NCBI RefSeq assembly: GCF_003018255.1
Contig: NZ_CP027440.1
Length of the DNA stretch: 64,000 nt
Origin: Escherichia coli
Lineage (GTDB): Bacteria; Pseudomonadota; Gammaproteobacteria; Enterobacterales; Enterobacteriaceae
Strand: one strand, 5' to 3'
Shown: piece after piece, positions 21,572 through 62,132 of the stretch
Position numbering within the stretch: position 1 is the stretch's first letter
How the letters are laid out: every line of letters begins with the position of its first letter
Translations under genes and position numbers: made by a program
Notes under the pieces: model-generated
What the model saw: only the letters and a program-made list of their open reading frames with translations
Database searches by the model: none
What the model was told of the DNA's origin: nothing

Positions 21572-22900
21572 ATGTCCAGAATCAATAAGTTCGTACTTAC
21601 AGTCAGTCTGCTGATTTTTATCATGATTTCAGCAGTTGCCTGCGGGATCTACACTCAAATGGTAAAGGAACGGGTGTATAGCCTGAAACAGTCCGTTATT
21701 GATACTGCTTTTGCGGTGGCAAATATTGCTGAATATCGGCGTAGCGTGGCAATTGATCTTATCAACACGCTAAATCCCACGGAGGAACAGCTGTTGGTTG
21801 GCTTACGCACAGCTTACGCCGACTCGGTTTCACCCTCTTATTTGTACGATGTCGGTCCTTATCTGATTTCCAGTGACGAATGTATTCAGGTAAAGGAGTT
21901 CGAGAAAAATTATTGTGCAGATATTATGCAGGTTGTGAAGTATCGACATGTCAAAAATACAGGGTTTATCTCTTTTGATGGTAAAACCTTCGTCTATTAC
22001 CTCTATCCGGTAACTCACAATCGTAGTCTGATATTTTTGCTTGGTCTGGAACGTTTTTCTTTACTGTCAAAATCGCTGGCGATGGATAGCGAGAACCTGA
22101 TGTTCTCCCTGTTCAAGAACGGTAAATCGGTGACCGGTGATGAATATAACGCTAAAAACGCCATCTTCACTGTTTCGGAAGCGATGGAGCACTTCGCCTA
22201 TTTGCCGACCGGGTTGTACGTATTTGCTTATAAAAAAGACGTTTATTTTCAGGTATGTACATTGATTATTTTCTTTGCCGCATTGGTGGCAGTGATATCG
22301 GGTGCCAGTTGCCTCTATCTGGTACGCAGAGTGATTAATCGTGGTATTGTGGAGAAAGAAGCCATTATTAATAACCATTTTGAACGCGTACTGGATGGCG
22401 GGCTTTTCTTTTCGGCTGCCGATGTCAAAAAACTCTACAGTATGTATAACTCGGCATTCCTGGACGATCTGACCAAAGCGATGGGCAGAAAATCCTTTGA
22501 CGAAGATTTAAAAGCGCTGCCGGAAAAAGGCGGTTATTTGTGCCTGTTTGACGTCGATAAATTCAAAAACATTAACGACACCTTCGGTCATTTGCTGGGC
22601 GATGAAGTGTTGATGAAAGTGGTGAAAATCCTTAAATCACAGCTCCCCGTAGATAAAGGTAAAGTCTACCGCTTCGGCGGTGACGAATTTGCGGTGATTT
22701 ATACGGGTGGAACGCTGGAAGAGTTGCTATCGATTCTAAAAGAAATTGTTCATTTCCAGGTGGGAAGCATTAATTTAAGCACCAGTATCGGTGTAGCGCA
22801 TTCAAATGAATGTACTACCGTCGAACGCTTGAAAATGCTGGCGGATGAGCGACTGTATAAGAGTAAGAAAAACGGCAGGGCGCAGATTAGCTGGCAGTAG
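21572..22900 (+). CDS. dgcI: Membrane diguanylate cyclase (GGDEF domain)
   Basis: 442-aa ORF; GGDEF motif (RFGGDEF) near the C-terminus; 7-nt gap after pdeI. Confidence 0.85.
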
Positions 22901-22913
22901 AATTAGAATAGTG

Positions 22914-22941
22914 TTAGTACCCCTTAATCAAGGGGTACTAA
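22914..22941. repeat. 28-bp perfect stem-loop at the dgcI-distal edge of the two-gene cassette
   Basis: TTAGTACCCCTT-aatc-AAGGGGTACTAA: 12-bp perfect arms, 4-nt loop, no U-tract on either strand. Confidence 0.7.
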
Positions 22942-22969
22942 TGAATGTGGTAAATCATTTGCAAACATT

Positions 22970-23299
22970 TTACTTTGCAAAAACTTCCGGCCCTTTTATT
23001 GCCAATGTATTCAAAATACGTAATGCCGGGCCGCTCGGTTTTATTTCATTACGTTCCCATTTCGAGACACTTTCTTTTGACATTCCCATTGTATGTGCCA
23101 GCACGGATTGTGACATGCCGTATCGGGTGCGGATGGCTTTGATCTCTTCACCCGTCATTGATTTGACTTTGGCTATACGGGCGCTGACTTCACGAGCTTT
23201 GACCATGACGGCAATGGCATCAACTTCACTATCAGACATCAGGCCCAGTGCATTCAGTTCCTTTGCATCTTCCAGCATCATTTGTAATTTATCGCTCAT
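22970..23299 (-). CDS. HTH (XRE/MqsA-C-terminal-like) DNA-binding protein; candidate antitoxin and autorepressor
   Basis: 109-aa ORF; C-terminal HTH region (YGMSQSVLAHTMGMSKESVSKWERNEIKPSGPALRILNTLA); GAGGTG Shine-Dalgarno; ATG overlaps the upstream ORF's stop by 11 nt. Confidence 0.7.
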   Translation of the reverse strand: MSDKLQMMLEDAKELNALGLMSDSEVDAIAVMVKAREVSARIAKVKSMTGEEIKAIRTRYGMSQSVLAHTMGMSKESVSKWERNEIKPSGPALRILNTLAIKGPEVFAK

Positions 23300-23675
23300 T
23301 TTTCACCTCAATCAAAAAGCCAGTTTCGATCAAATCCTCTATTTGCTTATTGCTAAAGGCCAGAAATGCATTTGCCATTTTTTTGTAGGCCGCCAGTTCA
23401 TCATCTTCGATTTCTTTGGTTCCTTTACTGCTTAGACCACTCTTGGACCAACCATCATAAAAAAACACATGATTTGCTGATTTAAAAAAGATAATTGTTC
23501 TGGCTCCACCACTCTTTCCTTGTTGGAGGGGTAAACGTTTTTTGATGACACCGCTACCTAAATCAGCCTCCCATATGCCCTGAATCACTTCTTCAGCGGC
23601 AGCCATGAGAACTTTATCGTGAATACCAAGTTTTTTCGTGCTTTGGCTGAATCGTCTTGCCTTATACACACCCAT
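23289..23675 (-). CDS. RelE/ParE-superfamily-like toxin candidate (DUF1044/COG4737-type, GKSGGxR motif)
   Basis: 128-aa ORF; AGGA Shine-Dalgarno 7 nt upstream of the ATG; conserved DLGSGVIKKR...GKSGGARTIIFF core typical of this toxin family; AT-rich relative to flanking core genes. Confidence 0.65.
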   Translation of the reverse strand: MGVYKARRFSQSTKKLGIHDKVLMAAAEEVIQGIWEADLGSGVIKKRLPLQQGKSGGARTIIFFKSANHVFFYDGWSKSGLSSKGTKEIEDDELAAYKKMANAFLAFSNKQIEDLIETGFLIEVKNER

Positions 23676-23690
23676 ACATCCATCCTTGTG

Positions 23691-23727
23691 GTAATGTTTA
23701 CTATAGTAACCATTACGCTTATTTCAA
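23691..23727 (-). promoter_or_regulatory. Sigma70-like promoter (-35 TTGAAA, 16-nt spacer, -10 TATAGT) overlapped by a 26-bp palindromic operator
   Basis: Minus-strand read TTGAAA-N16-TATAGT; palindrome GTAATGTTTACTATAGTAACCATTAC (23691-23716) contains the -10 and sits about 15 nt upstream of the toxin ATG. Confidence 0.6.
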
Positions 23728-23900
23728 GTAATTGCGATCAAAACTTTAATTTGGTGTGAAAAAGTGAGAGTTGCCTCGAGTACGATTCATTTTTCTCGAT
23801 TTATGCGTCAGGGGATTTTGTGCGTAAGGGTAGGACATCGGGAAGGGTAGCAGAGGCAGATCGAAGAACAATATCCTTGTTAGATCTGCCTTAAGATTAA

Positions 23901-25226
23901 TTAAACCCGGCTACCCCACAAATCGTACTCATCGGCGTGCTCGACTTTCACACGCAGGATATCACCCGGCTTAACGTTGGTTTCACCATTGAGATAAACC
24001 GCGCCGTCGATTTCCGGTGCATCTGCCATGCTGCGACCAATCGCACCTTCTTCGTCCACTTCGTCGATAATCACCAGAATTTCACGGCCCACTTTCTCTT
24101 GCAGGCGCTCGGCGGAAATCTGCTGCTGCAACTGCATGAAACGGTTCCAGCGTTCTTCTTTCACTTCTTCCGGAACCTGGTCAGGCAGGGCATTGGCGTC
24201 TGCACCTTCAACCGGGCTGTATTTAAAGCAGCCAACGCGATCCAGACGTGCTTCTTTCAGGAAGTCGAGTAGCATCTGGAAATCTTCTTCCGTCTCGCCA
24301 GGGAAGCCGACAATAAAGGTTGAGCGTAGGGTCAGTTCCGGGCAGATTTCGCGCCACTGTTTGATGCGCGCGAGTTGGCGATCTACAGAACCCGGACGCT
24401 TCATCAGTTTGAGAATGCGCGGGCTGGCGTGCTGCAACGGAATGTCCAGATAGGGCAGGATTTTGCCTTCTGCCATCAGTGGGATGACGTCGTCCACATG
24501 CGGATAAGGGTAAACGTAGTGCAGACGTGTCCAGATCCCCAGTTTCGATAACTGTTCGCACAGGCTGACCATGCTGGTTTTTACCGGCTCGCCGTTGTGG
24601 AAGCCAGTACGATGTTTAACATCGACGCCATAGGCGGAAGTATCCTGCGAGATCACCAGAATCTCTTTAACGCCCGCATCAACCAGACGTTTCGCTTCAC
24701 TTAACACTTCGCCAATCGGACGGCTCACTAGGTCGCCGCGCATAGACGGAATAATGCAGAAGGTGCAGCGGTGATTACAGCCTTCAGAAATTTTCAGATA
24801 GGCATAATGACGCGGCGTCAGTTTCACACCTTGTTCTGGCACCAGGCTCAGGAATGGGTTGTGTTTCGGTTTTGGCACGTAGTGATGAACGTGCTCCAGA
24901 ACCTGCTCATAGCTATGAGGCCCGGTGATTTCCAGCACTTTCGGGTGGACTTCGCGGATCTGATCTTCTTTTGCCCCCAGACAACCGGTCACAATTACCT
25001 TGCCGTTTTCATTCAACGCTTCACCAATGGCTTCCAGTGATTCTTGTACCGCGCTGTCAATAAAGCCGCAGGTGTTGACGATCACCATGTCCGCATCGTC
25101 ATAGCTCGGTACCACGTCATAACCTTCAGTGCGTAGTTCGGTGAGAATACGCTCTGAATCGACAAGGTTTTTCGGGCAGCCAAGGGAAACAAAGCCGATT
25201 TTCGGCTGGGGAGTTACTTTGCTCAT
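23901..25226 (-). CDS. rimO: Ribosomal protein S12 methylthiotransferase (radical SAM)
   Basis: 441-aa ORF; N-terminal MTTase domain; radical-SAM motif CNHRCTFC; C-terminal TRAM domain. Confidence 0.9.
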
Positions 25227-39156: not shown

Positions 39157-40059
39157 GTGAAAATTGCCATATTGTCCCGGGATGGAACGCTCTATTCGTG
39201 TAAGCGGCTGCGTGAAGCCGCTATACAGCGCGGTCACCTGGTTGAAATTCTTGATCCGCTTTCTTGCTACATGAACATAAATCCTGCGGCGTCTTCTATT
39301 CACTACAAAGGCCGCAAGTTACCCCATTTTGATGCTGTGATCCCGCGTATTGGTACCGCCATTACCTTTTATGGGACGGCGGCACTGCGCCAGTTCGAGA
39401 TGCTGGGGAGCTATCCGCTCAATGAGTCGGTCGCCATTGCCCGGGCGCGTGACAAATTGCGTTCCATGCAACTGCTGGCGCGTCAGGGCATCGACCTGCC
39501 TGTCACGGGCATTGCGCATTCGCCGGATGATACCAGCGATTTAATCGACATGGTCGGTGGTGCGCCGCTGGTGGTCAAGCTGGTTGAAGGCACGCAGGGA
39601 ATTGGTGTCGTGCTGGCGGAGACGCGCCAGGCGGCGGAAAGCGTGATTGACGCTTTCCGCGGTCTGAACGCGCATATTCTGGTGCAGGAATATATCAAAG
39701 AGGCGCAAGGGTGCGATATCCGCTGTCTGGTTGTTGGCGATGAAGTGGTCGCTGCGATTGAACGGCGGGCGAAAGAGGGCGATTTTCGTTCCAATTTGCA
39801 TCGTGGCGGCGCGGCAAGCGTCGCCAGTATCACACCACAGGAGCGTGAAATCGCGATAAAAGCCGCGCGAACGATGGCGCTGGACGTTGCTGGTGTGGAT
39901 ATTCTGCGTGCTAATCGCGGGCCATTGGTGATGGAGGTGAATGCGTCGCCGGGGCTGGAAGGAATAGAAAAAACCACCGGTATCGACATCGCGGGTAAAA
40001 TGATCCGCTGGATCGAACGCCACGCTACGACGGAATATTGCCTGAAAACGGGTGGTTAG
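39157..40059 (+). CDS. rimK: Ribosomal protein S6 glutamate ligase (ATP-grasp)
   Basis: 300-aa ATP-grasp ORF. Confidence 0.9.
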
Positions 40060-47710: not shown

Positions 47711-47744
47711 AAAAAAAGACGGACAACTTAGTGAGTTGTCCGTC
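47711..47744 (-). terminator. Rho-independent terminator of the artPIQM operon
   Basis: Stem GACGGACAAC / GTTGTCCGTC with 7-nt loop, followed on the minus strand by a run of seven T. Confidence 0.8.
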
Positions 47745-47769
47745 TTCATTATAAGAATTTATGCACTAT

Positions 47770-61812: not shown

Positions 61813-62132
61813 GAAAAACCAGTCCTTGCAAAGAAGATTCGAAATGCGCGATGACACACTACTGAAAGCGGAAGGACGAGTAAAGTTGCAATTAAAAGGA
61901 AATGTTATGCATCAGAGGGGGATTTTTAATTCTATATGAGTGTTTAGCATTGTTGCGCTCCTTTCATGTGCAATGCCATATAAAGCCACTGGCGCAGGGA
62001 GCGGCCAGTTGCCGCCGCTCCCTGCCCCCCCGGCCTTCGGGGAACGCCTCGGCGATTTTAACGCCACCAACACCCGTGCGGTTTGTAACGTCGAAGATAA
62101 AACCACCAGGGCAGACAACATGCCAATGCTAA

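What the first reader, a model, noticed from the sequence alone, without database searches (positions are those of the whole stretch)
22914..22941. 28-bp perfect stem-loop without a U-tract at the cassette's distal boundary
TTAGTACCCCTT-aatc-AAGGGGTACTAA has 12-bp perfect arms and lies 13 nt after the dgcI stop and about 28 nt after the antitoxin stop. There is no U-run on either strand, so it is not a canonical intrinsic terminator. It could be an RNA-stabilising 3' hairpin, a protein-binding site, or the recombination junction of the inserted cassette.
Basis: seen in the sequence. Interest (0 to 1): 0.4.

Follow-up and report, generated by a model that had tools for sequence, protein, structure and literature searches.

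The report
Transcript-end hairpin beside toxin-antitoxin genes
The 28-base perfect hairpin is real and occurs only in E. coli strains that carry a small toxin-antitoxin gene pair, but it is most likely just the ordinary RNA stem-loop that caps the ends of two converging transcripts, not a recombination site.

Summary
The hairpin TTAGTACCCCTT-AATC-AAGGGGTACTAA is at 22914-22941 exactly as described. It lies 13 nt after the dgcI stop and 28 nt after the antitoxin stop, with no U-run on either strand. It exceeds chance: 3 perfect hairpins with arms of 12 bp or more in the window, against 0.025 expected.

K-12 lacks both the hairpin and the cassette. There, 42 nt carrying a different U-less hairpin replace window 22900-23895. 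Among 5426 complete E. coli genomes, 1138 have the hairpin spacer and 1138 have the cassette. The hairpin is single-copy and matches no Rfam family. It does not fit attC, dif, REP or intrinsic-terminator definitions.

Relatives of the HigB2/HigA2-like module in Kluyvera and other Enterobacterales share DNA homology only from the operator palindrome to the antitoxin stop. The hairpin is therefore lineage-specific spacer, though four of six relatives have their own hairpin in that position.

On the toxin-antitoxin strand the hairpin is followed at once by a very C-rich, G-poor tract (top 0.3% of the window). That is the published architecture of Rho-dependent 3' ends.

Best reading: a bidirectional 3'-end protective stem-loop. 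This is ordinary and untested experimentally. Low interest.

The parts
22914..22941 (.). The hairpin: 12-bp perfect inverted repeat with loop AATC. T/G polymorphism at 22925, the loop-closing pair.
   Evidence: polymorphism
22901..22969 (.). 69-nt spacer between the convergent stop codons of dgcI and the antitoxin gene. Specific to the cassette allele in E. coli and not alignable with relatives in other genera.
21572..22900 (+). dgcI (GGDEF diguanylate cyclase, 442 aa). The stop is TAG here and TAA in K-12.
22970..23299 (-). Antitoxin gene, 109 aa. C-terminal HTH_3 domain, distantly similar to V. cholerae HigA-2.
23289..23675 (-). Toxin gene, 128 aa. Pfam PF06296, the HigB2-type RelE family, with toxin-first gene order.
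   Evidence: PMC11980606
23691..23716 (.). Operator-like palindrome GTAATGTTTACTA|TAGTAACCATTAC. It overlaps the -10 of the predicted promoter (TTGAAA-16-TATAGT, 23727 to 23700 on the - strand) and is conserved in relatives.
22836..22913 (-). C-rich, G-poor 78-nt tract (C 27, G 10) immediately 3' of the hairpin on the toxin-antitoxin transcript strand, antisense to the end of dgcI. It is rut-like.
   Evidence: only 0.28% of 78-nt windows in the window reach C/G of 2.7 or more
23854..23891 (.). Second U-less hairpin (AGGCAGATC...GATCTGCCT), 9 nt after the rimO stop codon (23901-23903), at the other end of the variable segment.
23732..23853 (-). C-rich tract (C/G 2.0-2.4) 3' of the rimO hairpin, between rimO and the toxin-antitoxin promoter.
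22900..23895 (.). The 996-nt segment that replaces 42 nt of K-12 (L001 501-542). It spans from the third base of the dgcI stop to 5 nt before the rimO stop.
23901..25226 (-). rimO (441 aa).

Best explanation
The hairpin is a 3'-end RNA stem-loop shared by two converging transcription units: the HigB2/HigA2-like toxin-antitoxin operon on the minus strand and dgcI on the plus strand. Because it lacks a U-tract, it probably does not release RNA polymerase itself (inferred). Transcription runs past it into the antisense of the opposite gene. That RNA is untranslated and C-rich, so Rho is expected to terminate it (inferred). [quoted passage not shown] The 28-nt distance from the antitoxin stop leaves the stem clear of terminating ribosomes. 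The 13-nt distance from the dgcI stop puts its base at the edge of a terminating ribosome. So it is probably tuned mainly for the toxin-antitoxin mRNA. Shown here: the structure, its position, its strict linkage to the cassette allele, the composition of the downstream tract, and its failure to fit other element classes. Not shown: any RNA 3' end, Rho dependence, or an effect on stability.
For: The hairpin sits in a 69-nt spacer between convergent stop codons. It folds stably on both strands, with z -3.5 to -4.9. No T-run follows, and the terminator scan does not call it. The 78 nt immediately 3' on the toxin-antitoxin strand have C 27 and G 10, a ratio of 2.70, reached by 0.28% of windows. 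On the dgcI strand the ratio is about 1.5, roughly the 87th-90th percentile. Dar and Sorek 2018 (PMC6061677) report that steady-state 3' ends of Rho-dependent E. coli transcripts lie just after stable stem-loops without U-rich tails. They also report that these stems protect against PNPase and RNase II, and that rut sites lie immediately downstream. The same layout recurs at the rimO end of the segment, with hairpin 23854-23891 followed by a tract of C/G 2.0-2.4. The K-12 allele has an unrelated U-less hairpin in its 46-nt dgcI-rimO spacer (z -5.0 and -5.5). Four of six relatives of the module carry their own unrelated hairpin just after the antitoxin stop: L009, L012, L013 and L016. There is no Rfam match and no other copy in E. 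coli or in viral contigs.
Against: No transcript-end data for this locus were found; K-12 datasets cannot contain it. The C-rich tract is antisense to the dgcI coding sequence and is also present in K-12, so its composition may simply reflect dgcI codons. Two of six relatives (L010, L011) have no hairpin stronger than shuffled sequence. Variation is too low for a covariation test. The only common change (T to G at 22925) is uncompensated, and the spacer's divergence (1 in 69) is no lower than that of the cassette overall. One strain carries an IS481-family element inserted in the hairpin apex with the toxin-antitoxin genes intact, so the hairpin is dispensable at least there.
Confidence: 0.6

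Rival explanations
1. The hairpin is a neutral by-product with no selected function. On this view it is a palindrome left by the rearrangement that joined the pdeI-dgcI block to a pre-existing toxin-antitoxin locus, possibly built on a relic of the ancestral gsiD 3' end.
For: In relatives the antitoxin gene converges on gsiD, with no pdeI-dgcI between them. TACCCCTTAATC (22918-22929) is identical to the complement of the gsiD terminus AAG ATT AAG GGG TAA in L013 and L015. Random hairpins of the same composition reach a 12-nt match to those spacers in 0.1% of 20000 trials. The hairpin is not conserved beyond E. coli. It shows neutral-level variation and tolerates an IS insertion.
Against: The match was noticed post hoc. 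Over the full loci its BLAST E-value is 8.5, with equally long chance matches elsewhere. The loop orientation is opposite to synteny. A relic does not explain a perfect 12-bp inverted repeat kept in about 1138 genomes. Origin as a relic and present use as a 3' stem-loop are not mutually exclusive.
Confidence: 0.22
2. The hairpin is a double-stranded DNA binding site for a dimeric regulator, for example the HTH antitoxin acting at a second site at the 3' end of its own operon.
For: It is a perfect palindrome. The inner half-sites CCCCTT/AAGGGG are 10 bp apart centre to centre. The arm TAGTACCCCTTAA matches the operator half-site TAGTAACCATTAC at 10 of 13 positions (P about 0.02 against shuffled hairpins).
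Against: The half-sites are everted relative to the conserved operator at 23691-23716, so the same dimer geometry cannot apply. The operator is conserved across genera but the hairpin is not. The site is at the 3' end, about 750 bp from the promoter. The P value is marginal and post hoc.
Confidence: 0.06
3. The hairpin is a recombination or transposition site that mobilised the cassette, such as an attC-like, dif-like, IS-end or REP-like hairpin.
For: It is subterminal, 14 nt inside the left boundary of the segment that differs from K-12. HigB2-family cassettes in Vibrio integrons are followed by attC sites (own knowledge). An IS481-family element has inserted into its apex in one strain.
Against: It is a single copy per genome and always at this locus. 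There is no related repeat at the right end and no recombinase or transposase in the segment. The core motifs are in the wrong order for attC and the length is 28 nt against at least 57. It matches dif at 6 of 28 positions. The conserved module in other genera ends at the antitoxin stop and lacks the hairpin. Viral contigs hold no copy.
Confidence: 0.03
4. The hairpin is a weak, non-canonical intrinsic terminator that works despite the interrupted U-tract.
For: The stem is strong and partly GC-rich. The minus-strand tail CACUAUUCUAAUUCU contains 7 U in 15 nt.
Against: No run of 3 or more U lies next to the stem on either strand, and the scan did not call it. E. coli intrinsic terminators normally need a proximal U-tract (established knowledge).
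Confidence: 0.09

Closest known systems
[quoted passage not shown]
   Same: It is a stable stem-loop without a U-rich tail just after a stop codon, and a C-rich, G-poor tract begins immediately downstream.
   Different: No 3'-end, Rho-inhibition or exonuclease-mutant data exist for this locus. The hairpin is shared by two converging units. It is absent from the K-12 strain in which that class was mapped.
The dgcI-rimO spacer hairpin of E. coli K-12 (CAGGCCGG-N13-CCGGCCTG)
   Same: It has the same position relative to the dgcI stop, is U-less, and is stable on both strands.
   Different: The sequence is unrelated. In K-12 a single hairpin serves dgcI and rimO. In the cassette allele two hairpins (22914-22941 and 23854-23891) bracket the toxin-antitoxin operon.
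Canonical (bidirectional) intrinsic terminators
   Same: It is a strong hairpin between convergent genes.
   Different: There is no U-tract downstream and no A-tract upstream on either strand. The Proteus relative L012 does have a canonical terminator at the equivalent place.
Integron attC sites following HigBA2-type cassettes (Vibrio superintegron)
   Same: It is an imperfect-to-perfect palindrome immediately 3' of a toxin-antitoxin cassette of the same toxin family (PF06296).
   Different: It is 28 nt against 57-141 nt. GTTAGTA...TACTAAT is in the reverse order to RYYYAAC...GTTRRRY. There are no extrahelical bases, no integrase, no array and only a single copy.
REP/BIME and other repeated extragenic palindromes
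   Same: It is a short palindrome in an intergenic spacer between convergent genes.
   Different: It is unique in the genome and does not belong to a repeat family.

Membership tests
Rho-dependent 3'-end protective stem-loop | Energetically stable stem-loop just downstream of the last gene, not followed by a U-rich sequence | tested here: met
Rho-dependent 3'-end protective stem-loop | rut-like C-rich, G-poor RNA immediately downstream of the stem | tested here: met
   On the toxin-antitoxin strand C/G is 2.70 over 78 nt, in the top 0.28% of the window. On the dgcI strand it is about 1.5. This is a composition test only.
Rho-dependent 3'-end protective stem-loop | Steady-state RNA 3' end mapped at the 3' base of the stem, with read-through increased when Rho is inhibited and the end lost or shifted in exonuclease contexts | not testable with these tools
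   No data were found. K-12 datasets lack this allele.
Intrinsic (Rho-independent) terminator | GC-rich stem-loop | tested here: met
   A 12-bp stem with 5 G-C pairs per arm.
Intrinsic (Rho-independent) terminator | U-tract immediately 3' of the stem | tested here: not met
   The tails are UGAAUGUGG (+) and CACUAUUCU (-), and the scan does not list it.
Integron attC site | R''(RYYYAAC)...R'(GTTRRRY) core sites in that order, length 57-141 nt, extrahelical bases | tested here: not met
   Read from the sequence: GTTAGTA lies 5' and TACTAAT lies 3', which is the reverse order, with a T where an R is required. The stem is 28 nt and perfect.
Integron attC site | Association with an integrase and a cassette array | tested here: not met
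   Only dgcI, the two toxin-antitoxin genes and rimO are present.
XerCD dif / pdif site | 28-bp site of 11-6-11 with XerC and XerD arm consensus, and paired sites flanking a module | tested here: not met
   The geometry is 12-4-12. A by-eye comparison with E. coli dif recalled from memory gives 6 of 28 identities. It is a single copy.
REP/BIME repeated palindromes | Many dispersed copies per genome | tested here: not met
   There is one locus per genome. The second 'place' reported is the palindrome matching itself on the other strand.
Rfam RNA families | Covariance-model match | tested here: not met
   0 matches at E of 10 or less over 22600-24200.
Toxin-antitoxin operator (antitoxin binding site) | Palindrome at the promoter, conserved with the module | tested here: not met
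   The conserved palindrome is at 23691-23716. The hairpin is at the 3' end and is not conserved.

The most novel reading that the evidence does not exclude
The U-less hairpin could be a deliberately leaky two-way insulator. On this reading, dgcI transcription that passes it runs antisense through the antitoxin gene, and toxin-antitoxin transcription runs antisense into dgcI. Expression of a c-di-GMP cyclase and the toxin/antitoxin balance of a HigB2-type module would then be coupled by convergent transcription, with the T/G polymorphism at the loop-closing pair tuning the leak. A milder variant is that the hairpin is built on a relic of the gsiD terminus. That would mark the ancestral gsiD|toxin-antitoxin junction and show that pdeI-dgcI inserted into an older toxin-antitoxin locus.
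Probability: 0.06. Interest if true: 0.4.

Novelty: new member of a known kind. Interest (0 to 1): 0.12.

Why it matters
It matters little beyond annotation. If confirmed, it gives the 3' boundary of a widespread but unstudied HigB2/HigA2-like operon, present in about 21% of complete E. coli genomes including O157:H7. It also adds one more example of the 'stem-loop plus downstream rut' architecture. The more useful by-products concern the locus. The 'cassette' is not a simple insertion relative to K-12, because a 996-nt segment stands in place of 42 nt. The module occupies the same rimO-adjacent position in other genera. Its likely operator is the conserved palindrome at 23691-23716.

Tried and rejected
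- **Rfam:** a scan at E of 10 or less found nothing.
- **Viral contigs:** an exact-pattern scan for the hairpin gave 0 hits.
- **Plasmid collection:** it held only mislabelled E. coli chromosomes plus relatives at 68-75% identity whose homology does not reach the hairpin.
- **Partner repeat:** a repeat search for a partner at the other end of the segment found none.
- **Covariation test:** it was not possible. E. coli copies differ only at 22925. The relatives at 89-95% protein identity proved to be E. coli contigs with assembly errors, L031 and L032. BS-01 is homopolymer-corrupted.
- **Literature:** searches for this toxin-antitoxin locus or for O157:H7 3'-end maps found nothing usable. Supplements of the two K-12 3'-end papers either were not held or did not list dgcI or rimO.
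- **attC, dif and REP readings:** all rejected on defining features.
- **Operator half-site similarity:** 10 of 13 positions, P about 0.02, judged insufficient because the orientation is everted.
- **gsiD-terminus match:** 12 nt, P about 0.001 locally but BLAST E 8.5 over the full loci. It is kept only as a note.

Full report
**Observation**

The sequence at 22914-22941 is TTAGTACCCCTT-AATC-AAGGGGTACTAA, with 12-nt perfectly complementary arms.
- dgcI (21572-22900, + strand) ends with TAG, 13 nt before the stem.
- The antitoxin ORF (22970-23299, - strand) ends 28 nt from the stem.
- Neither strand has a T-run after the stem, and the consensus terminator scan does not list it.
- Perfect hairpins of this size are not expected by chance. 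The 64-kb window has three with arms of at least 12 bp, against a mean of 0.025 in dinucleotide shuffles.
- As RNA, the 69-nt spacer folds far better than its shuffles on both strands (-23.0 kcal/mol, z -4.9 on +; -17.7 kcal/mol, z -3.5 on -).

**Native to dgcI, or linked to the cassette?**

In K-12 W3110 the dgcI stop is TAA. It is followed by a 46-nt spacer to the rimO stop, which carries a different hairpin, CAGGCCGG-N13-CCGGCCTG.
- Identity with the window ends at the second base of the dgcI stop codon and resumes 5 nt before the rimO stop.
- Window 22900-23895 (996 nt) therefore stands in place of 42 nt of K-12.
- The hairpin lies 14 nt inside this segment.

Across 5426 complete E. coli genomes:
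- 1138 contain the 69-nt spacer (blastn, word 11, E of 10 or less).
- 1138 contain the spacer plus both cassette genes.
- Almost all the rest have a short K-12-type junction.
- The hairpin is never found elsewhere. The 'two places per genome' are the palindrome matching itself on the other strand.
- Ten independent assemblies carrying the identical antitoxin all have the same rimO / toxin / antitoxin / dgcI / pdeI context.

**Variation**

The only recurrent difference in the spacer is T to G at 22925. It was seen in O157:H7, ATCC 8739, PM7 and several others.
- It opens the loop-closing pair, leaving an 11-bp stem with a 6-nt loop.
- It is not compensated.
- One change in 69 nt is about the same divergence as the whole cassette (98.4-100% identity). 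There is no signal of special constraint and no material for a covariation test.
- Apparent 89-95% relatives turned out to be error-laden E. coli contigs.
- One strain, CFSAN018748, has an IS481-family element inserted in the hairpin apex with a 7-bp duplication ATTAAGG, and its toxin-antitoxin genes are intact.

**The cassette**

- The toxin (128 aa) belongs to Pfam PF06296 (E 3e-32). This is the HigB2-type family of ribosome-dependent mRNases with toxin-first gene order (PMC11980606).
- The antitoxin (109 aa) has a C-terminal HTH_3 domain and is distantly similar to V. cholerae HigA-2.
- A promoter-like site (TTGAAA-16-TATAGT) lies upstream of the toxin. Its -10 is embedded in a 26-bp palindrome at 23691-23716.

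**Relatives**

Antitoxin homologues at 65-81% identity occur in Kluyvera, Siccibacter and other Enterobacterales.
- In L013 the order is rimO, a SUKH-domain gene, toxin, antitoxin, then convergent gsiD.
- L009, L015 and L016 also have gsiD convergent with the antitoxin gene.
- E. coli has the same arrangement, except that pdeI-dgcI lie between gsiD and the module.
- The module is thus associated with the rimO/gsiD interval across genera. 'Inserted cassette' is not the only reading of the E. coli polymorphism.

DNA homology between E. coli and these relatives runs from the operator palindrome (about 23716-23731) to 22969-22980, that is, to the antitoxin stop codon, and stops there.
- The palindrome is conserved at 75-96%.
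- The hairpin is not part of the conserved module. It belongs to lineage-specific spacer.

Even so, four of six relatives have their own unrelated hairpin just after the antitoxin stop.
- L013: a 10-bp stem, z -4.8.
- L009 and L016: GC-rich stems, z about -1.9.
- L012 (Proteus): a canonical terminator with a T-run.
- L010 and L011 have nothing better than shuffled sequence.

**Mechanism**

The best-supported reading is a 3'-end stem-loop of the kind mapped genome-wide in E. coli by Dar and Sorek (PMC6061677). [quoted passage not shown] They also found that the stems protect against PNPase and RNase II, and that rut sites lie just downstream.

The local layout fits that description:
- On the toxin-antitoxin strand, the 78 nt immediately 3' of the stem have C 27 and G 10. 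That ratio of 2.70 is reached by only 0.28% of 78-nt windows in the window.
- On the dgcI strand the ratio is about 1.5.
- The pattern repeats at the other end of the segment. A second U-less hairpin (23854-23891) sits 9 nt after the rimO stop codon, followed on the rimO strand by a tract with C/G 2.0-2.4. That tract separates rimO from the toxin-antitoxin promoter.
- The K-12 allele has a functionally equivalent but unrelated U-less hairpin.

The steps involving Rho, exonuclease trimming and stabilisation are inferred, not shown. The C-rich tract is antisense to the dgcI coding sequence and also exists in K-12, so its composition is not evidence of selection for this hairpin.

**Rival readings**

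- **Neutral by-product or relic.** TACCCCTTAATC (22918-22929) equals the complement of the gsiD terminus in L013 and L015. Locally this is P about 0.001, but the BLAST E-value over the full loci is 8.5, and the loop orientation is opposite to synteny.
- **Protein-binding site.** The arm matches the operator half-site at 10 of 13 positions (P about 0.02). The half-sites are everted relative to the operator, and the hairpin is not conserved with the module.
- **Recombination site.** Rejected on defining features. The hairpin is single-copy, has no partner repeat and no recombinase nearby. Its core motifs are in the wrong order and it is too short for attC. It does not resemble dif. It has no copies elsewhere.
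- **Weak intrinsic terminator.** Possible, but the U-tract requirement is not met.

**Verdict**

This is a real, non-random hairpin that is strictly linked to the cassette allele. It is best explained as an ordinary bidirectional transcript-end stem-loop.
- It is a new, unannotated member of a known kind and is of low interest.
- Confidence in the mechanism is about 0.6, because no RNA-end data exist for this allele.

Noticed in passing
window 22970-23731; loci L009, L013, L015, L016: The toxin-antitoxin module occupies the same rimO/gsiD interval in Kluyvera and other Enterobacterales, convergent with gsiD and without pdeI-dgcI. It may therefore be an old resident of this locus. The K-12 state (42 unrelated nt) is not a clean empty site.
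   Followed up: partly
window 22918-22929; L013 2885-2896; L015 about 1009-1020: A 12-nt exact match (TACCCCTTAATC) links the hairpin's left arm plus loop to the complement of the gsiD stop region (AAG ATT AAG GGG TAA) in relatives. Locally P is about 0.001, but BLAST E is 8.5 over the full loci, and the loop orientation is opposite to synteny. It is either a relic of gsiD or chance.
   Followed up: partly
L019 840-870 and 2040-2065 (E. coli CFSAN018748): An IS481-family element is inserted in the hairpin apex with a 7-bp target duplication ATTAAGG. The IS terminus TGTATTAG resembles the hairpin arm GGTACTAA. This occurs in 1 of 1138 genomes.
   Followed up: partly
window 23691-23716: The 26-bp palindrome GTAATGTTTACTA|TAGTAACCATTAC overlaps the predicted -10 of the toxin-antitoxin promoter. 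It is conserved at 75-96% in relatives from other genera and is the likely antitoxin operator.
   Followed up: partly
window 23854-23891 and 23732-23853: A second U-less hairpin sits 9 nt after the rimO stop codon (23901-23903). On the rimO strand it is followed by a C-rich tract (C/G 2.0-2.4) that separates rimO from the toxin-antitoxin promoter.
   Followed up: partly
window 22925: There is a T/G polymorphism at the loop-closing pair of the hairpin. G is found in O157:H7, ATCC 8739, PM7 and others. It is uncompensated.
   Followed up: yes
window 23025-23049 (+ strand): A weak terminator-like site (GCCGGGCCGCTCGGT followed by TTTATTTCAT) lies antisense inside the antitoxin gene, about 85 nt past the hairpin. 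It could be where dgcI read-through actually stops.
   Followed up: no
L018 (E. coli STK78-E): An IS1 lies between gsiD and rimO. pdeI, dgcI and the toxin-antitoxin genes are all absent, giving a third state of this locus.
   Followed up: no
window 39634-39660, 47716-47746, 61994-62025: There are three other perfect hairpins, with arms of 11, 13 and 12 bp. The one at 47716 has an A-run before it, and the one at 61994 is followed by a C-run. Neither the hairpins nor their gene contexts were examined.
   Followed up: no
L020 (E. coli BS-01), L031: Apparent divergent alleles of the antitoxin region are assembly artefacts (homopolymer-corrupted sequence and frameshifts), not real variants.
   Followed up: yes
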